A stretch of DNA of 64,000 bases from Dictyostelium discoideum. Taxonomy: Eukaryota. The translations under genes were made by a program, and so were the position numbers. Of this stretch, positions 4,723 to 52,079 are shown one piece after another. Every line of letters begins with the position of its first letter. The stretch's first letter is position 1. The DNA lies in the NCBI GenBank assembly GCA_000004695.1, contig CM000154.2, positions 1,248,001 to 1,312,000 of the forward strand, given 5' to 3'. The notes beneath the pieces are model-generated. The model made no database searches, was not told where the DNA came from, and was given only the letters and a program-made list of their open reading frames with translations.

Positions 4723-5852
4723 ATGACTATTATGTCAGATATTATCGCACAAAGAACAATCTTGCTAATCGCGGATTTTTCATCGATTATTGGATGTTCT
4801 TTGGTTTTAATTGGATTTTGGAGGTTAAAACTTTTACGTAATCACATTACAAAAATTATATCATTATTTTGCGCAACTTCTCTATTTAAAGATGTAATAT
4901 CAACAATTATCACATTACTGTATAAACCCGACCAAACAGAATCTGGTTTTCCTTGTTATCTTCATGCAATAGTAATTACTTTTGGTTCATTAGCATGTTG
5001 GCTTTGGACTCTTATGTTATGTATGTTTTTTTATTTTTTTATTTTCCTTATAAAAAAAAAAAAAAAAAAAAATTAAAAAAATTAATATTAATATTAAAAT
5101 TTTAATTTTAATTAAAATAGCATTTAGTATTTATAATTTAATAGTAAGAAGAGAACCAGAACCAGAAAGATTTGAAAAATTTTATTTTTGTCTTTGTTAT
5201 GGATTACCATTGATTAGTACGATTGTTATGTTATCAACACATATTATTCAACCAGTTGGTGGTTGGTGTTGGATTGGTGATAACTATGATGGGTATAGAT
5301 TTGGATTATTTTATGGGCCATTCTTTTTCATTTGGGGAACATCAGCAATTTTGGTTGGATTAACATCGAAATATACATACTCTGTAATACGTAGTAGTGT
5401 ATCTGATAATAAGGATAAACATATGACCTATCAATTTAAATTGATAAATTATATCGTTGTATTTTTGGTTTGTTGGGTATTTGCAATCGTTAATCGTATT
5501 CTAAATGGTTTAAATCAATTTCCAACGGTTCCAAATGTTTTACACACCTATTTCAGTGTTTCCCACGGTTTCTATGCTTCCATCACTTTTATTTACAATA
5601 ATCCATTGATGTGGCGTTACTTTGGTGCAAAATTCTTATTGATCTTTAGTAAATTTGGTTTATTTGTTCAAGCTCAACAACGTTTGGAATTAAATAAAAA
5701 TAATAATAATCCATCACCAATTATGAGATCAAAGAATGCTCTAGATAATGGTGCCGACTCTTCGGTTGTAGAATTACCTTGTCTCTCAAAAGCTGATTCT
5801 TTATCACTTGATGCTGAAAATAATATTGAAACTCCAAAAGAAAATGAAAATC

Positions 5853-5890
<38 letters not shown>

Positions 5891-5950
5891 AATCATTATA
5901 ATAATAATAATAACAATAATAATATAAATAATAAAAATGATATGATTTAA
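4723..5950 (+). CDS. cAMP receptor (cAR) family 7TM GPCR in 2 exons.
   Basis: Exon 1 is 4723..5020 with donor GTATGT at 5021. The intron is about 100 nt. Exon 2 is 5121..5950 after acceptor AAAATAG; an alternative acceptor giving an exon start at 5145 is also in frame. Motifs are nearly identical to the Dictyostelium cAR1-4 family as I remember it: [82 protein letters not shown]. The intron sits after TM3, as in cAR genes. The C-tail has an 11-His run. Confidence 0.8.
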
Positions 5951-7579: not shown

Positions 7580-8710
7580 ATAACAAATTAAATTTATTAT
7601 TTTTTTTTTTTTTTTATTTTTTTTTTTTTTCATAGTTATTTAGTTTAAGAAATATATTTTTATTTTACCTACTTTTTATTTATTATTGTAATTATTTTTT
7701 AAAATGAGATATTGTTATAAAAGAGATATCTTGTGATAATATTTTTTTTTTTTTTGTTTATAATTTATCTGATGAAGAGATAATGAATAAAAATAACTTT
7801 TTTTATTTTTTATTTTTTTTTCTTTGAGATTTTATAGTTTTTATTTTATTTTTCAAAATTTATTTTTTTTTTTTTTTTTTTTTTTTCCAGATTTAATTTA
7901 GTGTGAGTGGATGTGTAAATGAGTGTGGCACACAAAAAAAAATGGCTTTTTTTTTAATTTTTTAATTTTTTTTTTTTTTTTTTGGAGTAAGGGTTTAAAA
8001 AATTAAATTTCATTCATATTAATTAAATTGTGAGCTTTTTTTAGAGACCCTAATAATAGGAAACACATCATTCCATTTTTATTTACTTTAATTTCCTTAA
8101 AATACAATCATAATGAAATTCTAATTTTAACCACCACACTTTTGTTTTAATATTAAATTTATTTTTGTCATGTTAATAATTAATATTAACATTAATATTT
8201 TAACATTAATTTTTTTTTTTTTTTCTTTGATTAAAAACACAACACAATCCCTTTTTTTTTTATTTTTTTTTATTTTATTATTCAATTCATTTTGTTTGAT
8301 TCACTTTTTTTTTTTTTTTATTTCATTTTTTTACCTAAATTAGAATGGTGGTGGGATTTATTTTTAAAAGAAAGTGCAATTTACAAGTCCAAAACCTATT
8401 TTTGGTAAATTACTATTTTTGTGAATGTAAAAATTTTTTAAAAAAAAACAAAAATATAAAACAGGGTAACTATTTTCTAATTATAGCAAGGTAAAAAGTG
8501 GTGTGACACTTCTTGGAATCTAAAAGTTTAAAAAAAGAATAAAAAAAGATAAAAAAAGAATAAGATAATTATAAAAATAAAATAATATAAAATAAAAAAA
8601 ATTTATTAAAGATACTATCATTATTATTATTATTTTTATTATTATTATTATTTTTATTTTTTATTTTTAGTTTTCTTTATTTTTATTTTTTTTTTTGGAC
8701 CAACAACCAA

Positions 8711-11700
8711 CTAATTATTTTTAGAAATGTCAACAATTTTAGATAGTGTTGCAATTGCCATAACTCTTGAGTCTTTATCAGAATCGGATTGAGATACTTC
8801 AAATAAAAATTGAGCAATATCTTCAATTTCATCAGTGTAGTCTTGATCAATAACTGACTTTGTAATTGTCTCTCTATAGAATACTCTTGATAGTGAATAA
8901 AGTAATGACCTTCTCACATTTGAATCTCTATGTGATTTAAATGACCACAAAAATCTAACCAACTCTTTTGATATCATTCTAGTATCATTTGAATTACCTG
9001 CACATTCAACAATAACACCCAATGTATGAATTAATCTACTTAATAAAAAACTATCATATCCCATCATCATCTCACCACCACTAGCACCACCTTCATAACA
9101 TTGAGTAACTTTATCAAATCCACTTAATAATGGATAAAAATAAATTTTTACAAATTTATGGAATCTATTTGATTTTATTATTGGTCTAGGTGTCTTTCTT
9201 TGTCCCCATTTTCTAACAATACCAATTTGTTTTAAAATTGGTAATTTACTACTTTCACCACTACCACCACCACCATTAATATTAAATATACTATTTTTAG
9301 ACTCTTCATACTGTTGTTGTTGTTGTTCTTGTTGTTGTTGTCTTTGAGTATTTTGTTGATAATTTAAAGCTGATAATTCTTTAGCAGATTCAGAGATTGT
9401 TTCCAAGATTTCAATTCTTTGACCAATGCTAAAATTCTTTTGTTTGAAAGCATCAGTGAGATAAGGAATTACTAATGAAGTTGATTGAGTTGCTAAGGAA
9501 ACTAATGATTCATGACGAATTGATGAGAATGATTCTAAATCATATTCATTTGTTAAATGAATTAATGAATTTGCAAGTTGTACACTTAATTCATCTAAAT
9601 CATCAGGTAATGACCAAACTATATTTGATATTGAATTTAATGCATTCTCCCATGACTCTGCTGTATGTTTTTGACTTTGTAATTCTAATAAACAGTCTCT
9701 TAAATATATCTTTTTTTTAATACCATTTAAATCTGATTCATCATCATCTAAATCATATGGTTTTAAATCATCATCATCCTCATCCTCCTCCTCATCTTCT
9801 GAATTGATTTCTGTAATTTTTGGTCCATTTTGTACTACTTCTTCATCTTCATCTTCATCTTCATCTTCATCATCTTCATCATTCATAATTTTATCAGGAT
9901 CATCATATTTTTTAAATTCTTTTTCTAATAATTTTTTATAATGTTCTTTTGAGCTATTTGATTGTTTTTTTTCATTTCCAATATTTGATGATGCTGTACT
10001 GTTGCTTGTTGTATTGGTGGTGGTAGTGGTATTGGTGGTCGTTAAAGGTTCTTGAAAAATTGGTTTAAAATTTAAAGAAAAACATTGTTGATCAGGTGTA
10101 TCTAGTGAATAGTTGAATTTTAATGGTTCTGATGAATTATTATTATTATTATTATTATTAAATAATTTTGAAAATTGTTCAGCTACAAACATACCACGAT
10201 TATTTATATTTGAAATTGTAAATTTTAAATGTACATCAATACCACTTAATAATAAATGTTTAATATGTTCAATCTTATCTGATGGTAATGGTTTAATAGT
10301 TGATGTTGATGTTGAATTTGCTATTGATAATTTTTCAATAAAAAAAATTATTGATCTTGTAATATAAGAATGTTGCTCATTTGTACAATGTCTAATAAAG
10401 TAAGGATCTTTCCATGATTTTAATAAATTATTTAAAATTAAAAATAATAATGGTTCTTTATCTTCATTTGTACTACCTTCAAATAATAGTATAGAATAAA
10501 GTAAATCTAAATAACAATTTTGACTATTATTATCCATTACTTTTAAAATTAATATTTTATTTATCATTATATGTACAATCATTGAAATTTCATTTCTTCT
10601 TTTAAAAATTTCTAAAAATATTAATTTAAAAACATCTTTATATATATTATAACTAACTAAAAAAGAAGGAAAATAATTATTAGAATATTTTTTTTAAATA
10701 TATATATATTTAAAATGAAAAATAAAAATTACATACATTTTGATAATGATTTTATAATTGTTTCTAAAAATGTATCTAAACAACTACCTTGAATTCCAAT
10801 AATAATATTAGATGATAATTTCTTTTTTAATATTAAACTACTATTCTTATTATCATCTTGAAATAACTCTTTAAAGAAATTATTTACAATAATATCTTTT
10901 TCACCAATTTTAATCATTTTTGAAAATAAAATTGAATATTGGTTTGAAAATAATGTTATTATATTATTTATATTATTATTATCACTATTATTATTGAGGT
11001 TGGTAGAAATACTACTATTTACAGATTGAATACATTGTTGAATGATTTTGGAATAAAATAAATTATTATTGGTAAAGAATTCTAAAATATAATCTTTAAC
11101 TGATGATAATGGTGATTGAATATTCCTAATTCTATTATTTTTATAATAATATTGAATTGATCTACATTTATCTGGTATCAAACAAATTGATTTTATTATT
11201 AAATTCCAAATTGTTTCATGAATTTCTAAATCAATATTATTATTATGTTTTTTAAATTTTCTATTTTGAAATTCAATTATTAACTTTGATAAATTATTAC
11301 TATTATTATCATTTATAAATTTATATAAAATATTAAATAAAAAGTTTAATTTTTGTGAATATAATTCTTCATTATTTTTACTATTATTATTATTACTATT
11401 ACTATTATTATAATTATATTCTGATAATAATGTTGTTAATGTTATAAATGATTCTGATAATAAATTTGGTAAAAAGAAAAAACTTTCAAATAATTGTTTA
11501 TCAAATTCTGTGAATGCATAATACCAATTATCTAAAACATTTTCAATTAATAATTTTAAAATTGATGTTATTGTTACTTGATTATCATTATCATTATTTT
11601 CGCTATTATTATAATTTAAAAATGATTGTTTTAATTCCCTTAATTGTTCAATTATTAATTTTATATCTTTAGTTTGACAAATATTATTAATTAATTCTTT

Positions 11701-11715
11701 CAATGTTAAAACCAT
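8711..11715 (-). CDS. HEAT/ARM-like scaffold protein of about 974 aa, possibly a Tel2/TELO2 homolog, in 2 exons.
   Basis: The true ATG is at 11715 (MVLTLKEL...). The ORF-track start at 11742 is a TTG. Exon 1 is 11715..10737 and ends ...AAAT|GTATGTAATTTT. The intron is about 81 nt and ends TCCTTCTTTTTTAG. Exon 2 is 10656..8711. The phase is consistent (1/2). The protein has helical-repeat N- and C-terminal halves joined by an acidic Ser/Asp/Glu linker (DEDDEDEDEDEDEE, DLDDDESD) like the CK2 site cluster of Tel2. The C-terminal ...DSNVRRSLLYSLSRVFY block resembles the Tel2 conserved domain. The family call is from memory only. Confidence 0.45.
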
Positions 11716-11947
11716 TTTTATAATATTGAAATTCTTTCCCAAAAAAATTTTTATTTTTTTTAATTTTTTATTTTATTTTATTTTTTTTTTTTTTTTTTTT
11801 TTTTTTGGAATCCAGAAACCAAAAAATCTCAATAAAAAAAAAAATTTTTTTTTTTTTTTTTTTTATTTCAAATTTTTTATTTTCATTAAATTAATTAAAA
11901 ATAAAAAAAAAAACGAGTGGTTAAATTAATTGATAATAAAATAAAAA

Positions 11948-12378
11948 ATGACATCAAATATAACGGAATTAAATAAATGGATTGAAGGTTATGTTAATCC
12001 ACAATCAGAAGAATCAGTGAAAACCAATGCGATTAATATGGTTTTATTATATATGAAATCAAATAAAATTGATTTACAAGATGTGGTTCAAGGTTTAGGA
12101 GATTATTTAAAGAGTAATGATTCAATACTTCGTGCAAGAGGTACATTATTATTATCAGAAGTATTATGTAGATTACCAGATTTACCATTAAATCAAGATC
12201 AAGTTCATTTCCTTGCAATGTTTTATTGTGATCGTTTACAGGATTATGCATGTTCTTCAGAAGTTGTTAAAGGTATTACTGGTTTAATAACAAATCATAC
12301 TCCAGATTATCCTGATAATCAAAAATTATTAAGAAAGTATGTATTAATAATAATAATAATAAATAAATAAATAAATAA

Positions 12379-12442
<64 letters not shown>

Positions 12443-12818
12443 AATTAACACAAATAATTATTATTAATTTTTAGTATATTTTCAGAAGTTCATCCAACAT
12501 CATTAACTCAAGCACATAGAAAGATGGTATTACAAGTTATTGATATAATGTTTAATAAATGTTTATCAGAGATTCAAGAACTTAAAAATGATTTTATGGT
12601 TGGATATTTACAATTTATAGATAATGAAAAGGATCCAAGAAATTTAATATTCTCATTTAAATTATTACCAAAAGTAATTTATAATATACCAGAGCATAAA
12701 CACTTTTTAGAGAGTTTATTTGAAATTATATCTTGTTACTTTCCAATTTCATTCAATCCAAAAGGAAATGACCCAAATTCAATTACTAAAGATGATTTAT
12801 CAAATTCATTATTGTAAG

Positions 12819-12873
<55 letters not shown>

Positions 12874-15800
12874 AAAATAAATATATTATAAAGTTATTCT
12901 AACCTTAAAAAAAAAAAAAAAAAAAAAAAAATTAGAAATTGTTTTTCATGTACACCATTATTAGCAGAACATTCAATTCCATTTTTAATTGATAAGATTT
13001 GTAGTAATTTAATTGAAACAAAGATTGAAGCATTACAAACATTGGTATATTGTTGTGATCGTTATGGTGGATTTGCAGTTCAACCATTTTTAGAAGAGAT
13101 ATGGAGTACATTAAGAACTTTAATTTTAACACACAAGAATACAACAGTTATTGAAGAATCAAAGAAAACCATTTTCTATTTAACAAGATCATTTACAAAA
13201 GAACGTAAAGTTTTAGAATCATTCCTTTCAATAATGATTAAAGAATGTCTTCATCATATTAAATCTTCACAAGATTCTAAAATTGCAATTTATTGTGCTT
13301 CAATTCTTTATCAATCTGTTAGTGCAAGTTGTATGTATCTATAATTTTATTATATATTATATATTAAATATTAAATATTATATTAATTGTATTTATATTT
13401 TTATCTCTACTACTAAATCATCATAAAATATATACTATTATAGTATTATCATCAAAAATCATTTTAATTCATATTTTCCCAAATTTATTTAATTTCCTTA
13501 GTGAATTACAAAAACAAGATACAGTACAAAAAGTAAATGAACAAAATTCAGTGATCGCATTATTTAATGATTTATTGAAAGCAAATTCAATAGCATTTGA
13601 AATGTATTCAAATGAAAATAAAGAACCAAATCCATTAGAACCATTTGTTGATCAATTATTTAAATTATTTTCAGATTTATTATTATTGAATTCATCATCA
13701 TCAATTAGATCAAATTCAATCGAATGTTTATCAAATCTTTATATTTCAAAAAAGGTACATACTACTGAACAAGATGATGACGATAGTGAACAAATCACTA
13801 ATGAATTCCTTTTGGATTTAGAAAAGAGACAATTCATTATTAAAAGTTTAGTTTCACTTTTAAATAGTTCAGACAATACATTAAGACATAAGAGTTTAGA
13901 TTCATTGTTTACTATTGCCTCAAATGAAGATCCTTCAGTTTTAAATTTATATGTAATACCAACTTTATTACAAATGATTAATCATTCATCATGTAATATT
14001 AATACAACTAATAATAAAATTAATAATAACAATAATAATAATAATATTGTTATAAAAAATAATAAATGTCAAGATGAACATTGTAATGAAGATCATAGTA
14101 ATAAAAATGAAAATAATAATAATAGTAACGAAAATAGTAATGGTAATAGTACTAGTGGTAGTGATGATGATTTAAAACATTATTTAGAAGCTTTCACAAA
14201 ATTATGTACACATCAACCATTATTAGAGAGTGTTATACCACAAATTCAAGTACTACTTCAACATAATATTAAAGAAACTTATCAATCGAATGAAGATTTT
14301 GAAAAGAGTATATTGATTTTACAATCTATAAGTTTTATTTTAGAGAAATCAACAAATATTAAATCAATGACAATTTGTTCAAAATCAATTTTATTCCCAT
14401 TAATTAAAGGTTTATATAAACAAGAATTAATATCTTCAAGTAATGATAATAACAATAATAATAATAATAATAGTAATAGATTTAATCAAATTTTAACACC
14501 AACTTTAAAAATGATTCATTCAATTTTTGAAAATATTTCAATTGAATCACAAAAACCACTTTTAGAGAAATTAATTAAATTATTTTTAAATGGTGATACT
14601 TTAGTTATTAATTATCAATTACCAACAACGACAACAACAATAATTAAACCATTTGAAAAATCATCACCATATAAATATTTAATACCAATATTTACAACAA
14701 TCATCTCTCAAAGTAAATTAGATTTATCAGAAAATAATGAATTGAAACAATCACTTTACCAAATGTCATTAGATGTAAATGTAGATGATTCAATTGCAAT
14801 CTCTTGTTCAAAAGCTTATTCATCAATCATTAATAAACAACAACAACAACAACAACAAGATCAAATCAATTTCAATTTCTTTAATGATAATCTATTAAAA
14901 GTTATCAATGATACTACCACACCATTACCTTTGAAAATTAGACATTTAGATTTATTCACTTGGTGTACAAAAGCATTATTAACAAATGGTAATTCAATTA
15001 ATATTAAACTTGGTTCTTGTTTAGCTGATATCATTTCAAATGAAAATGTAGAATTATCTTATCATGCTTCAAAATCATTTGGTATTTTATTAAGTGAAAC
15101 TGATGTTTTAAATGAAAAATCTGGTTCAATTATAAAAGTAAATATATATATATATACACACACATATATAATATATATTTGAAAATTTTTATACTAATTT
15201 TTATTTTTTATTTTTTAAAAAATTAGATCTTATTTGAACAAAAATTCTTTACATTAATGTTCCCAATTTTATTAGAATCATTTAAGGTTAGTAAAAATAA
15301 AGAATTACAAACAATCTCATCACATTATTTAATTGCAATTTCAAATTTACTTAAACATGTACCAAAAGAGATTTTACTTGCTGAATTAAATGAAATCTTA
15401 CCAATCGTTATGCAATCACTTAAAAGTTCTGATAATAATGATCAAGTTCAATTATTAGATAGTAGTTTACAAACTTTAACAATGTTAATCAATGAAACTC
15501 CTTCAAGTTTTATTTCTTATTTAGATTCTTTAATTCCTTCATTAATTAAAATTTCTACAAAATCTACAAAATATGTAAGTGTATAAAAAAAAATTTTAAA
15601 AAATCATAATAAATTTATATATATATATAATATATATTATATTATATATATTATATATTAATCCTTTTATTATTATTTTTATTATTATTATTAGAATTTA
15701 AAAAGATCAGCTTTAGAGATTTTAACATTATTATCAAAGTCAATTCCATTTGTTAATTTATTCCCTTATAAAACTCAAGTAGTTACAGATATAATTCCTT

Positions 15801-15877
15801 GTTTGGATGATAAAAAGAGAATAGTAAGAAGAGAGGCTCAAAAATGCAGAAACAGCTGGTATATTTTGCAAAAGTAA
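11948..15877 (+). CDS. mms19: MMS19 homolog (cytosolic Fe-S assembly targeting factor / nucleotide excision repair protein) in 6 exons.
   Basis: The exons are 11948..12336 (donor GTATGT), 12475..12813 (donor GTAAGT followed by (GT)n), 12936..13330 (donor GTATGT), 13444..15137 (donor GTAAAT), 15227..15574 (donor GTAAGT) and 15695..15877 (TAA). All splice phases are consistent. The N-terminal block VVQGLGDYLKSNDSILRARGTLLLSEVL and the C-terminus ...DDKKRIVRREAQKCRNSWYILQK match the MMS19_N and MMS19_C families. Confidence 0.85.
12820..12870. repeat. (GT)n dinucleotide microsatellite of about 25 units starting at the donor of MMS19 intron 2.
   Basis: The sequence reads TTG|GTAAGTT(GT)25. Confidence 0.9.
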
Positions 15878-16526
15878 AAAATAAATGAATTTTAATGATT
15901 AATTTTCTTTTTTTTTTTTCCTATTTTTATTTTTTCTATTTTTATTTTTTCTATTTTTATTTTTTTCTATTTTTATTTTTTCTATTCTATTAATTTGATA
16001 TTTTCATTTCCTTAAATGGAATAAATTCACATTTGTTTCTATATTTCTTTTTGAGAGTTTCTGAAAAAAAAATAATAAATAAAAAATAAAAACAATACTA
16101 AAATGTCTTTTTATTAATTTGTTAATTATTTTTTTTTTTTATTCATATTATTTTTTGTTACCCAAAAAAAAAAAAAAAAATTTAAAAATATAATATGTAT
16201 ATATATATATATAAAAAAATAAAATTAAAAAAAAAAAAAAATTTTATAAAAATTTTAATTGCTTGGTTTTATATATAATATTTTGGGGTATGAGCAAGTA
16301 GTGATACTAAAAATATGAAACCCACATTGGAAAATAGATATTGGGAGTATTTGTTTAACACACTCACACACCAACCCCCATTAAATGTTTAAATTACAAT
16401 AATTTAAATATTGTTTAATTATTTTACAATATTACTTTTTGTTCAATGAAACAAACAATCATTTAACAATGTTGAAAAAAGTACTTTTCATAAATTAATT
16501 TAATTATTAAAATTTTTTATTTTTAT

Positions 16527-16760: not shown

Positions 16761-19700
16761 ATGAAAATTATTTTTTTTATTTTTTTTATTTTTTTTTTTA
16801 TTCAATTGCTTTCAAACCGATATGTATTAGGTGAAAAATCAAATAATATTGATAATACTAAGGATGATAAATTAAGTCCTTTAAAACAAATATTACAAAA
16901 ACAAAGAAAACAAGCAGAAAATGAAAAGAATTTAATTAAAAATCTTGCAGAAATCATTTACACTGTGAAATCAATGGATCAATCACAATCTGAAACTGGT
17001 GATGTTTATATTGACCTATTCTTAGAGGATACCGATGGAAAGAATACTACAAAAATGGCAGAATCTATCTACAGTTTAATTGATACCTTGGAGAGATTCG
17101 ATATTGAAAAACGTCAATTACGATTAGAAAAAAAACAACGAAAACATAAACAATCTAAAACACAACAACAACAACTAGATTTAGTTAATGACAAATTCAT
17201 TTCAAAAAAATTACTGTCAATTGATATTGAAAATTTTGATTTTGAGAGAAATGTTGACAACAATCAACAACAACAAGATTTTGATATAATCGATCAAGAA
17301 ATCATTGATGGTTTACCAATAACTCATTATAAAGATGTTTATCTTCGAAATAAATTAATTTCAAAATCAGTTAATACTGACTCACAATCAAGTAATTCAG
17401 AAAATAATGAATCATCTTCAGTAGGTTTATCAATTGGTTCAACATCTTCACCAAACAGCTCACAAAAACCATCATTAGAATCGTCGTCAACAAACTCAAA
17501 ACCTCTTGAGCCACCCTCTCAAGAGTCACAAGGATCATCAGAAAATTCATCATCAATAGATTTATCTTCACAAGAATCTTACTCAAATGAACAGTCCTCA
17601 ATTGAGTCATTCTCACCAAGTTCCTCATCTAAAGAATCATCACAAGAATATTCTTCAAGTGAACCATCTCCTTCAAGTGGGCCATCATCATCATCATCAT
17701 TAAGTTCACAAGAATATTCTGCTGGTTCATCTTCAGTAAGCCTATCTTCAGTAGGTTCACACTCACAGGAATCTTCTGTAGGTTCATCTTTAGTAGGTTC
17801 ATCTTCTGTAGGTTCACAAGAATCTTTAGTAGGTTCATCTTCTGTAGGTTCACAAGAATCTTTAGTAGGTTCTTCTTCTGTAGGTTTACCTTCACAAGGA
17901 TCATCCTCAATAGATTCATCCTCACAAGAATCATCTTCAATAGGTTCAGTAGGTTCAACTTCACAAGAATCTTCAGTCGGTTCATCTTCACAAGAATCTT
18001 CAGTAAGTTCATTTTCAGTAGGTTCACCTTCACAAGGATCATCCTCAATAGGTTCATCCTCACAAGAATCATCTTCAATAGGTTCATCATCAGTAAGTTC
18101 ATCATCAAAAGGTTCGTCATCACAAAACAATGGACTAAGCTCTGAGCAACCTTTATCAGATAATGAATCAAATAGTGAATCAAACTCTTCACAATACATT
18201 TCAGAAAATGATTCAACTTCGTCATTACAAAATAATGACCCAAACTCATCATCACAAAACAATAATTCAAACTCTTTACAATCTGAATCTGAATCCTCTC
18301 AAAATGAATCAAATGAATCAAACTCTTTAGAAACCGAATCATCTTCAAATATTAAATCTAGTTCATCACAATCTGAAACATATCAATCAAGTTATGAATC
18401 TTCAAACTCATTTTCGTCTCAAAGTTCTGCTTTTGTATCATCTTCTTCTGAATCAAATGGTAGATCATCATCATCATCATCGTCATCATCCGCCTCCTCA
18501 TCATCATCATCACCAGAAGAACAATCATTTCCAATATCATCCTATTCAAATGATGAATGTGGAATTGAAGTTCAACAAATTATGTTAAAGAAATTAGGTA
18601 ATAATTTAGCATCATGGTCGATGAATATTATTAATTTAAAACCATTAATAGTTTTCGAACATATTTCAGTTTATAGAAAAGAGGCAATCACAAAACCAGA
18701 TAATTCAATTGGATATAATAAAGTGGATGTTTGGAATACCATTACTTCAAATGGTCGTCCTGAAGGAAAATTATTCTCATTTGTTTATATTGGAAATTTA
18801 GTTCCTGATAATTTCTTTATTTCTTGTGATAATAATACAACACCCCCAACTTTACCACCTACTCTATCACCAATTGATAATCATTTTTCATCATCTCAAC
18901 AACAATCCTCTTCACAATCCTCTTCATTTACACCATCCACATCTTCATCAACCCAAACTGAAGGATTAAAATGTAAATTGTCATATTCACAAAGAAGAAT
19001 TGGATATATTAGATTTGGAACTAAAATTAAATATATATGGTGGGTTGAAATTGCCAATAAAGGTGAAACAAGCATTGATAATCAATTATTTATTAAATTT
19101 GACCAAAATGTTGAAAATGTAAATGGATTAGATAAGGTTAATGTTGATGATGATAATAATAGTGAAGGTAGTTCAAGTATTGGAAGCAGTGATAGCATTA
19201 GAGATAGCATTAGTGATAGTGATAGTAGTGGTAGTGATAATAATATATATAAAGTTGGATCGAATGGTATACCATTAAGACCTGATAGTTTTTATGCATT
19301 TACATACTTTACACAATCAATTGTTCCAGCACAATTAGAATTTATAGATCATGATAATTGTGCTGAACCCATCGATTCGGGTAAACCATCACCAAATCAA
19401 CAAATTGGTACACCTGAAACTCAATGCTCAGCAGAAATTCATCAAGAGAAATTATCAACTAGTCTCACATTCTTTGGTTTCATTTCTTCATATGCTGTAA
19501 CAATTAAAAATACATCACCAGTTCAATCACTTTATGATTTAACAATCATATTTAAGAGTAGTATTAAAGAAGTAAATGGAATAGATCCATTAGTAATAAA
19601 TACATCAAGCTCAACAAATACTCAAATCTCTACAATCTCTGATTCAAATTATCAATTACCAGAATCATTACGTGTAATCGGTATAAAACCAAATCAACCT

Positions 19701-19796
19701 TTTGTTTTTTATTATGAAAAATATGGTTTCTTTTCATCTGATATTGAAATTCAAAATGAATTATGTTCACCAGAATACTTTTACAATAATAAATAA
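16761..19796 (+). CDS. Secreted Ser-rich repeat protein of 1011 aa: signal peptide, a Ser-rich repeat region of about 400 aa, then a C-terminal globular domain.
   Basis: It is a single ORF starting with the hydrophobic leader [24 protein letters not shown]. Degenerate tandem 11-aa units run through about 17700-18100 (SSVGSQESLVG, SSQESSSIGS). The Cys-containing C-terminal 450 aa are not low-complexity. I recognise no family. Confidence 0.7.
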   Translation: MKIIFFIFFIFFFIQLLSNRYVLGEKSNNIDNTKDDKLSPLKQILQKQRKQAENEKNLIKNLAEIIYTVKSMDQSQSETGDVYIDLFLEDTDGKNTTKMAESIYSLIDTLERFDIEKRQLRLEKKQRKHKQSKTQQQQLDLVNDKFISKKLLSIDIENFDFERNVDNNQQQQDFDIIDQEIIDGLPITHYKDVYLRNKLISKSVNTDSQSSNSENNESSSVGLSIGSTSSPNSSQKPSLESSSTNSKPLEPPSQESQGSSENSSSIDLSSQESYSNEQSSIESFSPSSSSKESSQEYSSSEPSPSSGPSSSSSLSSQEYSAGSSSVSLSSVGSHSQESSVGSSLVGSSSVGSQESLVGSSSVGSQESLVGSSSVGLPSQGSSSIDSSSQESSSIGSVGSTSQESSVGSSSQESSVSSFSVGSPSQGSSSIGSSSQESSSIGSSSVSSSSKGSSSQNNGLSSEQPLSDNESNSESNSSQYISENDSTSSLQNNDPNSSSQNNNSNSLQSESESSQNESNESNSLETESSSNIKSSSSQSETYQSSYESSNSFSSQSSAFVSSSSESNGRSSSSSSSSSASSSSSSPEEQSFPISSYSNDECGIEVQQIMLKKLGNNLASWSMNIINLKPLIVFEHISVYRKEAITKPDNSIGYNKVDVWNTITSNGRPEGKLFSFVYIGNLVPDNFFISCDNNTTPPTLPPTLSPIDNHFSSSQQQSSSQSSSFTPSTSSSTQTEGLKCKLSYSQRRIGYIRFGTKIKYIWWVEIANKGETSIDNQLFIKFDQNVENVNGLDKVNVDDDNNSEGSSSIGSSDSIRDSISDSDSSGSDNNIYKVGSNGIPLRPDSFYAFTYFTQSIVPAQLEFIDHDNCAEPIDSGKPSPNQQIGTPETQCSAEIHQEKLSTSLTFFGFISSYAVTIKNTSPVQSLYDLTIIFKSSIKEVNGIDPLVINTSSSTNTQISTISDSNYQLPESLRVIGIKPNQPFVFYYEKYGFFSSDIEIQNELCSPEYFYNNK

Positions 19797-19912: not shown

Positions 19913-21691
19913 TTAAAATGATTGTGAAACTAAAAGAGTAGCGGTTGTACTATTAAAACCATTAAAACCAAGTAATGTTTCAAATAATTCAATTTTACTA
20001 GGTGTTTTGTCAGCCTTAATATTAAATATTACTGATAAGGAACTCTCGCCACTTAAAGGATCTGTAAAACCACTTCCAATAGCACCACTTGGACTAAACC
20101 ATGAACGTTTACCTCTTTGTAAGAGCATATATTTAGTGGTACCATCAGTATATGTGATTTTAATAGTATAATCACAACCATTTGCATGACAATACCATGC
20201 ATATTTACTAACATTTGGTCTAATGTCAACCAATTGAGTTGAATTGGTTGGATCAAAAAAGGGCATAAGATTTCCTTTTGATTTAAAAATTGGATAAATT
20301 TGAGAAAGGTTGGCTGGTCCAACAAAACTGTGAGTGATGATGATTGTGTAAACATCTACATTTCTTTCAATTGGAAGACCATCATTTATACCATAGAGAC
20401 CATTGCTCTTGGTGGATGGAGTATAGGTTTCATATTTAAGAGTTGTTGTATTCCACTTTTTGTAACCAGTGGAAAAGGATTTATCATAAATGATTGAATC
20501 TTTGAAATAGTTTTGAATGGTAACTTCTTCATAATCTGCAAACATTGAGTATCTATAGCCTTGGGCTTGGTTACCTGCACCACCTTGCATTACAGATTGT
20601 TTAACGCAATTTTTATTTTGATCCAATATAAAACTTTTATTACAATTTTTATATGCACCAATATTTGATGGAATATTTACACTTAAAAATTCATTATGGT
20701 TCATATCAAAACCCCATTCTGATCCGAGCAAGCTTCCATCTACATATGGATAATTTCCACTCTTGTAACTATCACCGGCATGGGGCAAACCATAGCTATG
20801 ACCGGCCTCGTGGATGAAAATACCAGTATAGGAATAGTCTCCGGTACCCACGGAACCACCTCCTAAGCCTCCCCAAGGATCTGCATATTTACCATTGGCA
20901 CCCAAGTGAATAAGTGGAGCATAGTAAAGAACTGATGATGGACCTTCACCATTTGCACCTCTAATTCCACTCAAAATACCCAAAACGACACTCATAATCT
21001 CATAACCATCTCTTTTTTGGTCAGAGTTGGTTATTCTTAAACCTGGTAAATTATTTCTACCAGCTGGTAAAATTAAGTATGACCAATCAATTCTGGAAAT
21101 TGGGTGATTAAGTGCATTCAATGATGACAAAGACCATTTTTGAATTAATTCATCTGAAACATCTTTAGATATTGAACCAGTTACAGAGAGTGGTTGAGTA
21201 TTGGTATCGTTTGCACCAAATAAATAGAATGGAAGAAGCCACATATTTAAATTTGTTTCATGACCAATGTTTGGGAAAAAGAATTCAGATTTCAAGAGCA
21301 TAGTTGAAAATTGAATTTTCATTTTTGGTTTCATCCAATCTTTTGGAATTCTTATACTATGATGAACAGTGGAATATTTGGTACCATTGGATTCTGTTGG
21401 TGGCAATTTACTTGGATCATTAAGTGTTAATTTTCCCATTAATGAATCATCAACCCAAACTTTAACAGTATAGGAAAGAGTTTGATCTTGAAATTTGGCT
21501 AATAACAAAGACTCTCTGTTTGGAAGAATTTTTAATGTTACAGTATTATTTTTCCAACTTTTACCTTCAATTGGAAGTACATGTGTATTGGCAAATTTAA
21601 TATCACTGACTTGTAATCTTGAAGAACAGACTGCGCAATTAATATTTGTAATTAAATTTAAAAAAACTAATAAAATAATTAATATTTTCAT
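19913..21691 (-). CDS. Secreted zinc metalloprotease of peptidase family M66 (StcE-like), a dictomallein-type protein.
   Basis: It is a single exon with an ATG at 21691. The leader MKILIILLVFLNLITNINC is a signal peptide. The extended zinc-binding motif HEAGHSYGLPH (HExxHxxGxxH) lies in an M66-like context (IFIHEAGHSYGLPHAGDSY). Several named dictomalleins of this family exist in Dictyostelium, as far as I recall. Confidence 0.8.
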   Translation of the reverse strand: MKILIILLVFLNLITNINCAVCSSRLQVSDIKFANTHVLPIEGKSWKNNTVTLKILPNRESLLLAKFQDQTLSYTVKVWVDDSLMGKLTLNDPSKLPPTESNGTKYSTVHHSIRIPKDWMKPKMKIQFSTMLLKSEFFFPNIGHETNLNMWLLPFYLFGANDTNTQPLSVTGSISKDVSDELIQKWSLSSLNALNHPISRIDWSYLILPAGRNNLPGLRITNSDQKRDGYEIMSVVLGILSGIRGANGEGPSSVLYYAPLIHLGANGKYADPWGGLGGGSVGTGDYSYTGIFIHEAGHSYGLPHAGDSYKSGNYPYVDGSLLGSEWGFDMNHNEFLSVNIPSNIGAYKNCNKSFILDQNKNCVKQSVMQGGAGNQAQGYRYSMFADYEEVTIQNYFKDSIIYDKSFSTGYKKWNTTTLKYETYTPSTKSNGLYGINDGLPIERNVDVYTIIITHSFVGPANLSQIYPIFKSKGNLMPFFDPTNSTQLVDIRPNVSKYAWYCHANGCDYTIKITYTDGTTKYMLLQRGKRSWFSPSGAIGSGFTDPLSGESSLSVIFNIKADKTPSKIELFETLLGFNGFNSTTATLLVSQSF

Positions 21692-25821: not shown

Positions 25822-28436
25822 TTAATTTAATTGAAAATAATCTTGATTATCATCTTCATCCTCTAAAGGTAATTTATCAATTAAAGAACGAATGTAATTT
25901 GAATTTTTTGGATCAAGATCCAAAGCGGTATTTAAAGAATCTAAAGCTTTATCGAGTTCGCCCAATTGTTTATAACATTTACCTAAAAGAATGTAGATTG
26001 GAGTTTCTTTTGGTTCAATTTCTTTAAACTCTAATAATTGATCGATAGCATGATGATATTGTTGATTTGCAAAGAGGAAGGCAGCTAATTTGAATTTTGC
26101 AAAGGTATTCTTTGGTTGAATTTCAATTGAACGATATAGCATATCAATACCGTCTTGAATTTTATTTGGATTATGTTGTAGGGTCATACCTAAATAACAA
26201 CATAACACCGAACTGGACTCATTGATTGATAATGCTTTTCTAAAATGATACTCTGCTAAATTGTATTTCTCTTGACGATAATAAATCAATCCAATGCCAT
26301 AGAAGGCATTGTAATGACGTGGGTCACATCTAATGGCCATTCTAAATGCATTCAATGCTAACTCCAACTCGTCGTTCGCTAAATATTCATGACCACATAA
26401 TGTATAGGCATAGGTCATGTCTGGATCCAATTGAATGGCTCTTCTAAACAATTTGATTGCAGCTTCATGATCACGTTGTAAACTGAAACAATTGCCTACC
26501 ACTACCCAAGAGTAGGGTGACAATCTATCGAATTCTGAATATTTATGTGCAATATAACTTAATTCTGCATCTTCATTCATTTGCCATAACAATGTTGAAT
26601 ATAATTCCATACCCTCTAATCTATATGGTTCCATTTGTGATACCTCTTGAAATATTGATCTTGCCTCTTTATAATCAATTAATTCATGATATGCTTTTGC
26701 TACTTTTGTTAATACCCATCCAGTTCTATATTGTTCTTCTGATAATCTTTTAAATGATTCAATTGCTTCTTTACATAAATATCTTTAATATATTAAAATA
26801 AATTTTTTTTAATTATTAGATTAGATACTTTTTATAAAATTATTTTAAAATATATATATACACATACAAACAAAGTAATCTATAAGAATCTGCTAAAATA
26901 AAAAATAATTCTAATAGTTGAGTTTGACCTTTATGTAATTCAATTAAACCTTCATATAGATCACCACCATTGAAATCCAAAATTGAAGATTCATCAAATT
27001 CATAGAAATTTGGTTGAACTGAATTATCAGTAATATTTAATTGATCATCCTCTTCTAATTCTAATTCGTCAATAGATTTATTATGATGATGGAGATGATG
27101 ATGTTGTTGATAATGATGGTTTTCTTCATCATAATCATCATCACTTAATGAAGATGATAAACTTTTTAAACTAAATTCTTCAGTTTTACCAAAATTAACT
27201 TGTTTCTTTGTTTTTGTTAATAAAACCTCTTTATCTGTAATTGATGTTGTTGTTGTCGTTGTTGTTGTTGTTTGTTGTTTAGTTTGTTGTTGTTGTTGTT
27301 GTTGTTTTGATGTTGATGAAGTAAATCCATGGACATCACTACTTGTTGATGTTGTAAATATTGGACTCTTTAAATCAAGTGACATTGGTGTATCAAATTC
27401 ATTACTCATAGATTTCTTTATCATTTGAGATGGTGGTGCGCTCTTTTTATGTTGATGTGGTTGTTGTTTCTGATGATGATGAACACCTGGAGTTGAAGGT
27501 GTGTATGGAGTTTGACTATTGCTAGAAGGGGGATGTTGTGATCCTTTACTGTCAGGTGTATCCATAACCATTGGTATTGGATCTACAACATTTTGAGAAA
27601 ATCTATTTGAAAGTATTGGTGTTATATGAGAAAGTGGTGTTTGTGGTGTAACGAAATATCGATTATTATATTTTTGTAGATTTTGTTGTGATGGTTGTTG
27701 TGGCTGTTGTTGTTGTTGCTGTTGCTGTTGTTGATTAGTTTGTTGAATAGATGCTTTAAAATTAATTGGTGTAATATGTATTGATGAATCATAAAATGAG
27801 GAAGGTGTTAAACCAACTCTATGGTTTGGATGATATGGCGGTTTTATAAAATTATTTGGTTTAATTGTATTCGTTGTTATATTTGTTGTACCTGTAGCTA
27901 CTGTTGATGTGATAGTTTGTTCATTATTTTTATTACTGCTATTATTATTATTAATATTGTTATTATTGTTGTTATTATTATTATTATTATTATTAACTTT
28001 ATTTTGATTTAAGCTATTTGATAAATATTGTTGAAATTGTTGATGTTGTTGATGTTGTTGTTGATTTAAATGATTAATTTGATGAATTAAATTTGTATGG
28101 GAGAATAAGTCAGAGATATCAATTTCGTCGGGACATATATTACATAATTGCTCAAAAGCTACCCATAGGAATGGATAGGTGTAAACTGATTTTTTCAAGT
28201 ATTTAATTGCTTTCTCTTTTTGATTCTTTCTCTTTGATATTAATCCCATTAAATAATAAACTGATCCAATGCTACAAGGAGAATCAAAGCCATATGATAT
28301 ACTATTTATATCAACTATATCATCAAATTCACAAAGTATATCACTATAAATACCATAATATTCATTTTCATTATTGTTGCTATTGCTATTGTTATTGCTA
28401 TCATTATTTTTATTACTATTGTTACATTTATCTTTG

Positions 28437-28511
<75 letters not shown>

Positions 28512-28819
28512 GGTTGAAAATATTTTTCAAAATATATACAACATTTAATAATTGATGATTCAGCTTCTTGAATATTACCAAGATCATAATTTGATAATGC
28601 TAATAGATATAGGTTCTTTATCATTGTAATTTGAGGATGTTGTTGAAGTATTAATAAACATTGATTTATTTTACCCATTTGATAATAGATTTGAGCTATT
28701 TTAAAAAGGTTATCTTCATTGGCTGTTGATGCATATAATCTCTCTGAAAGAAATAATGCATTCTTTATTAATCCACAATGTATTGATTCATCAATACTTT
28801 GAATCATTATTTCTTCCAT
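25822..28819 (-). CDS. anapc3: CDC27/APC3 (anaphase-promoting complex subunit 3), about 970 aa in 2 exons.
   Basis: Exon 1 is 28819..26868 with an ATG at 28819 and donor GTATGTGTATAT. The intron is about 85 nt. Exon 2 is 26782..25822. The phases are consistent (2/1). The junction reads YRLLCL-YLCKEAIESFKRL...QYRTGWVLTKVAKAYHEL, followed by EPYRLEGMELYSTLLW...GNCFSLQRDHEAAIKLFRRAIQLDP...RHYNAFYGIGLIYYRQEKY. This matches CDC27 almost motif for motif. The internal Asn/Gln-rich insert is typical for Dictyostelium. Confidence 0.85.
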
Positions 28820-28985
28820 TTTTTTTTTTTTTTTTTTTTTTCTTAAAAATTTAATTATTTAATAATAAAATAAAAAATAAAAAATAAATATTATTTTATA
28901 TTAATTGTTTGACAATCGTTAAACCTTTTATTTATCTTGAAAAAAAATTAAAAATTAGAAAAAAATTTTTTTGTTGTTTATATTA

Positions 28986-29034
<49 letters not shown>

Positions 29035-29133
29035 GGGGTTATCCTTTTTTTTTTTTTTTTGTATTTAAATTTTAATTTTTAAAACAGTTGAGCATTTTGG
29101 ATAATAAAAAAAAAAAAAAAAAAAAAATTAAAA

Positions 29134-29298
29134 ATGGAAAATAAAGAAGTACAATTTAACAAAGATAAATCGTTATACAGTAATAGTGATATAAGGCAAA
29201 ACAATAAGAATGATGTTGTAATTACAACCAATTTTCATAATAGCAATAATTACGATCGTTCATATAAAAATAATAATAATAATAGTGATAATAGTGAT

Positions 29299-29335
<37 letters not shown>

Positions 29336-29512
29336 GCAATATTAATATAAACTATGTATCTAACAATCCAAATAGTAATAAATATTCAAATAGTAGTAAA
29401 CTGGAAATAAGGAATAATCATAGATCCACTCCCTATGATAGACCAAATAATAATAAATATAATGTAAAAACAACATACACTCAAAACTTTAACCCTACAA
29501 ATAATAATAATG

Positions 29513-29572
<60 letters not shown>

Positions 29573-30219
29573 TTAATATTAATAATGGAAATACACACTA
29601 TAATAGCAAATACTATAACCAAAATAATAATAATGAAAATAAAGAAAATAAAGAAAATAATAATAATAATAATTTTAATAATAAAAAATTAAATGTTGTA
29701 TCATTACCATCAGTTTTAAAGAATCAAAAAGAAACTGATGAAGAAAAGATTAAACAAAGACAAAAGCAAATTGACTTTGGTAAAAATACAATTGGTTATG
29801 ATAATTATATTCAGAGAGTACCAAAAGATAAAAGAGATAGAATACATCCAAGAACACCTGACAAATATCAAAAATGTTCAAGAAGGTCTTGGTTAGGTCA
29901 AATTAAAATTTGGAGAAAAGCATTACACAAATTTGATCCAAATAAAAGTGATAATGATAATGAAGATAGTGATAATGATAATTATATTGATAACGATAAT
30001 GAAGATGATAATCTTAAAAATGAAAAAGATGAAAATATCATAAAAATTAAAAAAGTACATGATAAAGATTATGAAATTGATGAACAATTAACACCACCAC
30101 CACCACCACCACCAAAAATAATAGAAAAGAAAAAGGAAGAAGAAGAAGAAGAAGAAGATTATGAAATTGAATCACTTGAGGAGAATCAAGAATTTTTAAG
30201 ACAATTATTAACAAAATAA
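29134..30219 (+). CDS. Histone mRNA stem-loop binding protein (SLBP) homolog.
   Basis: It is a single exon. The RNA-binding domain [69 protein letters not shown] matches the SLBP RBD, including the HP+TP-K-[YF] and SRRSW signature. Asn-rich low-complexity sequence flanks it. Confidence 0.8.
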
Positions 30220-36582: not shown

Positions 36583-41862
<5,280 letters not shown>

Positions 41863-51200: not shown

Positions 51201-51643
51201 GAACGAATCTCTGCAACATATGAATATTTTGATGGTGGTGATTTCTTAAATACGTAAACATGATTGTTGTTCATCTTCTCTTGTGCAATCAATACCTTTT
51301 CACTACCATTAATGATGAAATAACCGCCTTGATCGAATGAACATTCTCCCATCGTTGTTAAATCTCTATCATCTGCTTCATTCAACATACAATATTGTGA
51401 ACGTAACATAATTGGTACTTTACCAATGAAAATTCTCTTTAATACCTCATCGGTTCTTCTTTCATCACCTTTACTCTTTGATCCTGTCATCACCGTTTTC
51501 GTAATATCCACAAATAATGGTGCTGAATAGGTTAAATTTCTAATTCTTGCTTGATTTGGTGTAACTTGTTGTGATACACCATCAATTTCTGCTGTTGGTT
51601 TACTAAGATAAATTTGTCCAAATTTAACTGAAAATGTTGATAC

Positions 51644-51677
<34 letters not shown>

Positions 51678-52079
51678 TAATAATAATAAATTATTAATAA
51701 ATTATAAATATTTATATTATGAGAGTGTGTGTGTATAATTATTGAAATAAATTCATACATTATTACTAACTACTGCTTGACCTGGATGATGTTGTGATTC
51801 AGGTCTTAATGTAATTGGTGGTGATTCATCTATAATTTCTTGCATTGTATTTTGAATAAACTCATCAAATGAATCTAATTGTTGTCTAACTAAACCTTTC
51901 TCTTGAAAATATGCACTAATAACTGTCCAAACATCCTCTTGCGATATATCTGCATGTGGATTATCTATAAAATCATTATAATTTAATAGTTAATAATAAT
52001 TATAATAATAGTAAATATACAATATACTATATATAATATACATACCTTGGGAATCATCATTCATCATATAATCAGACAT
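48275..52079 (-). CDS. rpb2: DNA-directed RNA polymerase II second-largest subunit (RPB2), about 1170 aa in 4 exons.
   Basis: Exon 1 is 34 nt at 52079..52046 ([11 protein letters not shown], donor GTATGT). Exon 2 is 51964..51759 ([38 protein letters not shown], donor GTATGA). Exon 3 is 51643..48626 and ends GEMER|GTAAGT. Exon 4 is 48529..48275 ([16 protein letters not shown]...HICDICG...CRRCKNK...[24 protein letters not shown]). The phases are consistent. Hallmark motifs include [13 protein letters not shown] and [13 protein letters not shown]. Confidence 0.9.

What the first reader, a model, noticed from the sequence alone, without database searches (positions are those of the whole stretch)
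11500..12200. Head-to-head Tel2-like and MMS19 genes sharing an intergenic promoter of about 230 bp
The Tel2-like gene starts at 11715 on the minus strand and MMS19 starts at 11948 on the plus strand. The two are HEAT-repeat scaffold proteins that both deliver clients to chaperone or assembly machineries and both function in genome maintenance: Tel2 within the TTT/R2TP system for PIKK kinases, and MMS19 within the cytosolic Fe-S assembly (CIA) targeting complex. The spacer at 11716-11947 is almost pure A/T with a T22 run. A divergent arrangement of two functionally related scaffold genes suggests co-regulation from a bidirectional promoter.
Basis: inference. Interest (0 to 1): 0.5.

Follow-up and report, generated by a model that had tools for sequence, protein, structure and literature searches.

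The report
Ordinary divergent Tel2–MMS19 gene pair
Two correctly identified housekeeping genes (Tel2 and MMS19) sit back-to-back 232 bp apart in a social-amoeba genome, but this layout is commonplace there, arose only in one branch of the group, and gives no sign of special co-regulation.

Summary
A Tel2 orthologue starts at 11715 (-) and an MMS19 orthologue at 11948 (+). Both gene calls pass profile tests: Telomere_reg-2 at 95 bits, human TELO2 at 8.8e-41, MMS19_N at 289 bits and MMS19_C at 192 bits.

The head-to-head layout recurs in a second D. discoideum-type assembly, in D. citrinum and in D. purpureum, with spacers of 210-282 bp. In Polysphondylium violaceum the two genes are adjacent but tandem. 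In Acytostelium, Heterostelium and Cavenderia, MMS19 is not within 10 kb of Tel2. The linkage is therefore a derived trait of one lineage, and sharing a divergent promoter is not required.

The spacer's composition and homopolymer runs are generic for Dictyostelium intergenic DNA, and no motif beyond T-tracts is conserved. The same 64-kb window holds another divergent pair, an APC/C subunit and SLBP, with a 314-bp spacer of 90.4% A+T. Published data put 63% of D. discoideum–D. purpureum orthologues in conserved blocks averaging 2.8 genes.

Expression correlation could not be retrieved. No paper found here links Tel2 and MMS19 functionally. Verdict: a real but ordinary feature. Co-regulation is possible only in the trivial sense that the two genes share promoter space. 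Low interest.

The parts
10737..11715 (-). Tel2 orthologue, exon 1 (ATG at 11715; donor GTATGT at 10736)
   Evidence: Gene model built. The splice junction ...SLSKFSYNIYK... is identical in database protein P0001.
10657..10736 (-). Tel2 intron (80 nt, GTATGT...TTTTTTAG)
   Evidence: Sequence. The frame is restored across the junction.
8711..10656 (-). Tel2 orthologue, exon 2 with stop codon; 974-aa product. Carries the Telomere_reg-2 domain (aa 643-751) and a C-terminal region matching human TELO2.
   Evidence: Pfam PF10193 95.3 bits (cutoff 23.6), TELO2_ARM 24.9 bits (below cutoff 27). PDB 7f4u TELO2 8.8e-41, query 597-965 to chain 469-822. Equals DDB_G0288215 through the D. purpureum orthologue table.
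11716..11947 (.). Divergent intergenic spacer, 232 bp, 90.5% A+T. Must contain both 5'UTRs and both core promoters.
   Evidence: Orthologous spacers are 210, 231 and 282 bp at 91-92% A+T.
11781..11806 (+). T26 homopolymer (read as A26 on the Tel2 strand)
11834..11864 (.). A11T20 junction. On either strand it reads as an A-run followed by a T-run. Candidate nucleosome-excluding or core-promoter tract (inference only).
   Evidence: An A-run followed by a T-run also occurs in the orthologous spacers, but such tracts are ubiquitous in this DNA.
11948..12336 (+). MMS19 exon 1
12475..12813 (+). MMS19 exon 2
12936..13330 (+). MMS19 exon 3
   Evidence: The MMS19_N match runs unbroken over profile positions 1-261 of 262 across exons 1-3.
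13444..15137 (+). MMS19 exon 4
15227..15574 (+). MMS19 exon 5
15695..15877 (+). MMS19 exon 6 with stop; 1115-aa product
   Evidence: MMS19_C at 191.8 bits over profile positions 1-425 of 426.

Best explanation
This is an ordinary head-to-head gene pair in a compact, A/T-rich Dictyostelium genome.

The minus-strand gene encodes the Tel2/TELO2 orthologue, the HEAT/ARM scaffold of the Tel2-Tti1-Tti2 co-chaperone for PIKK kinases. The plus-strand gene encodes MMS19, the HEAT scaffold of the cytosolic Fe-S (CIA) targeting complex.

Only 232 bp separate the two ATGs. Both 5'UTRs and both core promoters must therefore lie in this one spacer. Its poly(dA:dT) tracts probably keep it nucleosome-poor, so the two genes share promoter space in a structural sense (inferred).

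The juxtaposition arose by rearrangement in the ancestor of the P. violaceum + group-4 clade. It has since persisted as a two-gene block, which is what most genes in these genomes do. The tight spacer may also help it persist, because there is little room for a breakpoint that spares both promoters.

Nothing found here indicates selection for coordinated expression because of related function. Any correlation in expression would most simply reflect that both are constitutive housekeeping genes.
For: Identity. The profile search recovers proteins that their sources name Telomere length regulation protein / TEL2 homolog.

Arrangement.

Phylogenetic pattern:
- Head-to-head in a second D. discoideum-type assembly (210 bp), D. 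citrinum (231 bp) and D. purpureum (282 bp).
- Adjacent but tandem in P. violaceum: MMS19 stop to Tel2 ATG is 166 bp, with no Ns in the stretch.
- No MMS19 within +-10 kb of Tel2 in A. subglobosum, H. album or C. fasciculata.
- A. subglobosum and C. fasciculata share a different Tel2 neighbourhood of methyltransferase, patatin and acyl-CoA dehydrogenase.
- H. album mms19 is PPL_00375, flanked by forD (PPL_00374) and a hypothetical protein (PPL_00376).

Base rates:
- 63% of 1:1 orthologues lie in perfectly conserved blocks averaging 2.8 genes (PMC3188802).
- 4,672 convergent pairs are annotated in D. discoideum, implying a comparable number of divergent ones.
- Mean intergenic length is about 700 bp at 13% GC, with long homopolymers.
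- A second divergent pair in the window has a 314-bp spacer at 90.4% A+T.

Spacer content: no motif is conserved beyond T-tracts.
Against: The pair is the only thing shared between the window and the D. purpureum and P. violaceum loci; flanking genes differ on both sides. It also survived an inversion as a pair. Some constraint on linkage is therefore possible.

Expression data were not obtained, so real co-regulation is not excluded.

Alignment of 90% A/T low-complexity DNA is too unreliable to exclude short conserved cis-elements.

No group-3 species was examined.
Confidence: 0.75

Rival explanations
1. The two scaffold genes are kept head-to-head because a shared bidirectional promoter coordinates their expression. 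This would match the supply of two client-delivery scaffolds that serve genome maintenance (PIKK maturation and Fe-S loading of DNA-metabolism enzymes).
For: Head-to-head with a spacer of 210-282 bp in all four group-4 genomes examined. The pair stays together while the flanks differ. In other eukaryotes, conserved divergent pairs are enriched for functionally related genes (PMC2871058).
Against: In P. violaceum, Tel2 is driven from a 166-bp spacer downstream of MMS19, so there is no shared divergent promoter. The genes are unlinked in three group-1 and group-2 species and in two unrelated eukaryote contigs. No spacer motif is conserved. The functional relation is generic, and no paper found here ties them to a common pathway. 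Conserved two-gene blocks and short divergent spacers are the default in these genomes. [quoted passage not shown]
Confidence: 0.12
2. Regulatory entanglement without a functional link. The pair persists in group 4 only because the spacer is so short that any breakpoint would damage one of two essential genes' promoters. Linkage is constrained mechanically, not selected for co-expression.
For: Spacer length is stable at 210-282 bp across species. Across eukaryotes, highly conserved pairs have short intergenic distances (PMC2871058). Both genes are expected to be essential housekeeping genes, from established knowledge of Tel2 and MMS19 in yeast and mammals.
Against: P. violaceum shows a breakpoint did fall between the genes, or that the head-to-head junction was created by such a breakpoint, without loss of either gene. 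This explanation overlaps with the best explanation rather than excluding it.
Confidence: 0.3

Closest known systems
Tel2/TELO2 (S. cerevisiae Tel2, human TELO2; TTT complex)
   Same: Has the Telomere_reg-2 domain. Its C-terminal ~370 residues align with human TELO2 residues 469-822. An acidic/Ser stretch precedes the conserved ...PYD... motif.
   Different: Long Asn/Gln/Thr/acidic low-complexity inserts typical of Dictyostelium proteins. The N-terminal TELO2_ARM match is below Pfam's cutoff. Binding to Tti1/Tti2 or PIKKs was not tested.
MMS19/Met18 (CIA targeting complex scaffold)
   Same: Full-length matches to both MMS19_N and MMS19_C. The orthologous name 'mms19' is already used in dictyostelid annotation.
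   Different: Asn-rich inserts. No functional data in Dictyostelium were found.
Bidirectional (divergent) promoters as defined for mammalian and fungal gene pairs (divergent genes less than 1 kb apart; e.g. HSPD1/HSPE1, histone H2A/H2B)
   Same: Head-to-head orientation, a spacer far below 1 kb, and conservation within a clade.
   Different: The classical examples encode subunits of one complex and keep the arrangement over very deep phylogeny. Here the products act in different machineries, the arrangement is confined to one dictyostelid sub-clade, its orientation is not fixed, and neither shared elements nor co-expression has been shown.

Membership tests
Tel2/TELO2 | Telomere_reg-2 domain (PF10193) above Pfam's gathering score | tested here: met
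   95.3 bits against cutoff 23.6, aa 643-751, profile positions 2-112 of 112
Tel2/TELO2 | N-terminal TELO2 ARM-repeat domain (PF25320) | tested here: inconclusive
   24.9 bits, E=1.7e-5, below the 27-bit cutoff. A weak phmmer stretch matches human TELO2 residues 319-432.
Tel2/TELO2 | Sequence similarity to a solved TELO2 structure over the C-terminal domain | tested here: met
   7f4u_A, E=8.8e-41, query 597-965 to chain 469-822
Tel2/TELO2 | Assembly with Tti1/Tti2 and PIKK clients | not testable with these tools
   Requires biochemistry.
MMS19 | MMS19_N (PF14500) and MMS19_C (PF12460) both present and full length | tested here: met
   288.7 bits (profile 1-261 of 262) and 191.8 bits (profile 1-425 of 426)
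MMS19 | Binding of CIAO1/CIAO2B and Fe-S client proteins | not testable with these tools
   Requires biochemistry.
Bidirectional-promoter gene pair | Divergent orientation with less than 1 kb between the genes | tested here: met
   ATG to ATG is 232 bp, on opposite strands
Bidirectional-promoter gene pair | Shared cis-elements in the spacer (phylogenetic footprint) | tested here: inconclusive
   A four-species alignment shows only T/A tracts conserved. The alignment of ~91% A/T DNA is unreliable.
Bidirectional-promoter gene pair | Correlated (or anti-correlated) expression of the two transcripts | not tested
   No expression table containing DDB_G0288215 or mms19 for D. discoideum could be retrieved. 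H. album mms19 shows only 1-7 reads per sample.
Bidirectional-promoter gene pair | Evolutionary conservation of the divergent arrangement | tested here: inconclusive
   Kept in the D. discoideum-type assembly, D. citrinum and D. purpureum. Tandem in P. violaceum. Unlinked in A. subglobosum, H. album and C. fasciculata.

The most novel reading that the evidence does not exclude
In the group-4 dictyostelid lineage, Tel2 and MMS19 were brought together and are held head-to-head because one nucleosome-free poly(dA:dT) promoter co-ordinates the dosage of two HEAT-repeat client-delivery scaffolds. These scaffolds jointly support genome maintenance: PIKK kinases through TTT, and Fe-S helicases and polymerases through CIA. 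This would be a lineage-specific regulatory coupling of two assembly pathways.
Probability: 0.08. Interest if true: 0.35.

Novelty: new member of a known kind. Interest (0 to 1): 0.12.

Why it matters
It matters little. The result corrects a plausible-sounding inference. Both genes are already in public annotation: mms19 is named, and Tel2 is DDB_G0288215, with orthologues named 'Telomere length regulation protein'. The layout is one of thousands of divergent pairs in a compact genome. The useful outcomes are three:
- a clean exon model for both genes;
- evidence that the linkage is a derived trait of P. violaceum plus group 4;
- a worked example showing that functional stories are easy to attach to neighbouring genes, since the same window offers an APC/C subunit paired with SLBP.

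If co-regulation were shown, it would be a modest example of lineage-specific coupling between the TTT and CIA client-delivery systems.

Tried and rejected
- The search for homologous proteins with the MMS19 N-domain returned no dictyostelid MMS19 at all, only seven distant hits. Synteny therefore had to be traced from the Tel2 side.
I re-ran with database proteins only.
- Expression data: DDB_G0288215 and mms19 were searched in the main text and in the supplements of Schilde 2016, Glöckner 2016, Parikh 2010, Rosengarten 2016 and Rosengarten 2015. The only yield was H. album read counts for mms19 (PPL_00375), too low (1-7 reads) to be informative. I did not establish what PPL_00376 is. H. album Tel2 lies on a locus with no MMS19 within 10 kb, so PPL_00376 is not Tel2.
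- Phylogenetic footprinting of the spacer gave nothing beyond homopolymers.
- The bacterial-type promoter/terminator scan and the RNA-family tools were not used, because they do not apply to a eukaryotic RNA polymerase II promoter.
- I considered whether the A11T20 junction is a special symmetric core promoter. I rejected it as evidence because A-run/T-run junctions are ubiquitous here.
- I considered whether the P. violaceum tandem order is an assembly artefact. Both genes lie on one contig with no Ns.

Full report
**Observation**

The window is A/T-rich (23.8% GC), intron-bearing eukaryotic DNA of the Dictyostelium discoideum type. On the minus strand an ORF starts with ATG at 11715. On the plus strand another starts with ATG at 11948. 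The 232 bp between them (11716-11947) are 90.5% A+T. They contain T26 (11781-11806), A11 followed directly by T20 (11834-11864), and A11 (11903-11913). Everything else in the description is accurate.

**Gene models**

- The minus-strand gene has two exons, 11715-10737 and 10656-8711, separated by an 80-nt GTATGT...TAG intron. The product is 974 aa. The junction is the same as in database protein P0001.
- The plus-strand gene has six exons: 11948-12336, 12475-12813, 12936-13330, 13444-15137, 15227-15574 and 15695-15877. All have GT...AG borders. The product is 1115 aa.

**Identity**

- The 974-aa protein matches Pfam Telomere_reg-2 at 95.3 bits (cutoff 23.6). It matches TELO2_ARM weakly, at 24.9 bits, just under the cutoff.
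- It matches human TELO2 (PDB 7f4u) at E=8.8e-41 over residues 597-965.
- A profile of dictyostelid orthologues retrieves 885 proteins at E<=1e-10. Of the eight top-ranked new hits whose cluster names were looked up, three are called "Telomere length regulation protein" or "TEL2 homolog" by their sources: Heterostelium album, Cavenderia fasciculata and the crinoid Antedon mediterranea.
- Through the D. purpureum orthologue table the gene is DDB_G0288215, which lies on chromosome 5.
- The 1115-aa protein matches MMS19_N (288.7 bits, full length) and MMS19_C (191.8 bits, full length).

**Is the spacer special?**

No.

- The window contains 59 A/T homopolymers of 20 nt or more, about one per 1.1 kb, and 28 of them are 26 nt or longer.
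- A second head-to-head pair lies in the same window: an APC/C TPR subunit at 26840-28819 (-) and the histone stem-loop-binding protein SLBP at 29134-30219 (+). Its spacer is 314 bp, 90.4% A+T, with runs T22, A40, T16 and A22. A "cell-cycle co-regulation" story could be written for that pair just as easily.
- The same paper found no general bidirectional-promoter effect for divergent lncRNA-gene neighbours, with a median correlation of 0.03.

**Conservation**

Synteny was traced from the Tel2 side. The loci compare as follows:

| Genome | Locus | Arrangement | Spacer |
|---|---|---|---|
| D. discoideum-labelled assembly GCA_054859385.1 | L003 | MMS19 and Tel2 head-to-head | 210 bp |
| D. citrinum | L004 | head-to-head | 231 bp |
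| D. purpureum | L001 | head-to-head | 282 bp |
| Polysphondylium violaceum | L002 | adjacent, both on the same strand, MMS19 upstream | 166 bp (72% A+T) from MMS19 stop to Tel2 ATG; no Ns |
| Acytostelium subglobosum | L005 | no MMS19 within 10 kb of Tel2 | n/a |
| Heterostelium album | L009 | no MMS19 within 10 kb of Tel2 | n/a |
| Cavenderia fasciculata | L010 | no MMS19 within 10 kb of Tel2 | n/a |

- A. subglobosum and C. fasciculata share a different Tel2 neighbourhood of methyltransferase, patatin and acyl-CoA dehydrogenase. That neighbourhood is the likely ancestral state.
- In H. album, mms19 is PPL_00375, next to forD. H. album Tel2 is head-to-head with an unrelated 912-aa gene only 70 bp away.
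- Two unidentified eukaryotic contigs that carry MMS19 have no Tel2 nearby.

On the accepted dictyostelid phylogeny, P. violaceum is sister to group 4 and groups 1-2 branch earlier (established knowledge). The Tel2-MMS19 adjacency is therefore derived, and confined to P. violaceum plus group 4. The head-to-head orientation is seen only within group 4.

**How much does that conservation mean?**

- Between the window and the D. purpureum or P. violaceum loci, only the two genes themselves match; the flanks differ on both sides. So the pair is a two-gene conserved block.
- The published base rate is high. 63% of D. discoideum-D. purpureum 1:1 orthologues lie in perfectly conserved blocks of at least two genes, and the mean block size is 2.8 genes (PMC3188802).
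- Divergent pairs number in the thousands, given that 4,672 convergent pairs are annotated (bioRxiv 10.1101/2024.06.12.598618).
- The conservation seen is therefore what an average gene pair shows.
- An alignment of the four divergent spacers conserves only T/A tracts. No footprint of a shared element was detected, although the alignment of such DNA is weak evidence either way.

**Function and mechanism**

From established knowledge:
- Tel2 is the scaffold of the Tel2-Tti1-Tti2 co-chaperone, which works with R2TP/Hsp90 to mature PIKK kinases.
- MMS19 is the scaffold of the CIA targeting complex, which loads Fe-S clusters onto nuclear and cytosolic clients, including DNA-metabolism enzymes.

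They are analogous in architecture and in broad role, but they act in separate machineries. The six papers in the library that mention both MMS19 and TELO2 have titles and abstracts on unrelated topics and mention each gene only one to four times. No Dictyostelium study of either gene was found.

Mechanistically, both promoters and both 5'UTRs must fit within 232 bp. The poly(dA:dT) tracts are the kind of sequence that excludes nucleosomes, so a common nucleosome-depleted region serving both genes is likely. That step is inference, not shown. It amounts to a "shared promoter region" in the trivial sense. Selected co-regulation is not needed to explain it. It is also argued against by the tandem arrangement in P. 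violaceum and by the unlinked state in groups 1-2, where both genes evidently function.

**What could not be done**

No table with D. discoideum values for DDB_G0288215 or mms19 was retrievable. The only data seen were 1-7 reads per sample for H. album mms19.
- Group 3 was not sampled.
- The window and the D. discoideum-labelled assembly L003 differ by about 3% substitutions plus many indels over this locus. They are not the same strain lineage. The exact source strain or species of the window was not determined.

**Verdict**

The interpretation as a functionally meaningful bidirectional unit is not supported. This is an ordinary divergent gene pair, conserved to the ordinary degree, of lineage-limited origin. 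Interest is low.

Noticed in passing
window 26840-30219: A second short head-to-head pair. An APC/C TPR subunit (ANAPC3/ANAPC8 domains, minus strand, ATG at 28819) faces SLBP, the histone stem-loop-binding protein (plus strand, ATG at 29134). The spacer is 314 bp, 90.4% A+T, with runs T22, A40, T16 and A22. Both are cell-cycle genes. It serves as a control showing how easily 'related' divergent pairs occur.
   Followed up: partly
L002 6303-12995 (P. violaceum AJWJ01000275.1): MMS19 and Tel2 are adjacent but co-directional, with a 166-bp spacer of 72% A+T. Relative to group 4, exactly the MMS19 gene is inverted. Here MMS19 is head-to-head with an unrelated 525-aa gene, 592 bp away.
   Followed up: yes
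L005 and L010 (A. subglobosum, C. fasciculata): Tel2 lies in a shared neighbourhood of a PrmA/MTS-type methyltransferase, a patatin-domain protein, an acyl-CoA dehydrogenase and a ~716-760-aa protein without Pfam hits. The order and orientation of these genes differ between the two species. This is probably the ancestral dictyostelid context of Tel2.
   Followed up: partly
L009 7024-14174 (Heterostelium album): Tel2 is head-to-head with an unrelated 912-aa gene (no Pfam hit) at only 70 bp by the annotation. Tel2 therefore sits in tight divergent pairs with different partners in different lineages.
   Followed up: no
L003 2271-9790 (GCA_054859385.1): The deposited annotation fuses MMS19 with the downstream gene, the counterpart of window ORF 16761-19796, into one 2031-aa product with no Pfam hits on record. 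This is probably a gene-model merge error. It may explain why the MMS19 query did not retrieve dictyostelid MMS19 proteins.
   Followed up: partly
window 8001-16500 vs L003: The window and the assembly labelled D. discoideum (GCA_054859385.1) are only about 92% identical at nucleotide level including gaps, with about 3% mismatches. The Tel2 protein has 18 substitutions and 42 indel columns. This seems high for strains of one species (my judgement, not tested here), so one of the two may be a distinct lineage.
   Followed up: no
window 12381-12439 and ~12817-12870: MMS19 intron 1 contains an A59 homopolymer. Intron 2 begins with a long (TG)n microsatellite. Both are likely polymorphic.
   Followed up: no
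window Tel2 aa ~600-640 (about 9800-9920, minus strand): An acidic/Ser stretch, ...NSEDEEEDEDDDDLKPYDLDDDESDL..., is largely invariant across dictyostelids (D621-L636 in alignment A3). It aligns with the human TELO2 segment ...SDSDLDSDDEFVPYDMSGD... From my own knowledge, that human segment carries the CK2 sites bound by PIH1D1. This suggests the R2TP-docking motif is retained or mimicked by acidic residues.
   Followed up: no
window 1-64000: Other genes seen on raw ORFs: a Twinkle-like DnaB_C helicase (6-1049 +), a cAMP receptor of the Dicty_CAR family (5210-5950 +), Peptidase_M66 (19913-21691 -), a Roco kinase with LRR-Roc-COR-kinase-WD40 (37408-41862 +), an RNA polymerase second-largest subunit (48536-51760 -), and poly(A) polymerase (55779-57635 +).
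   Followed up: no
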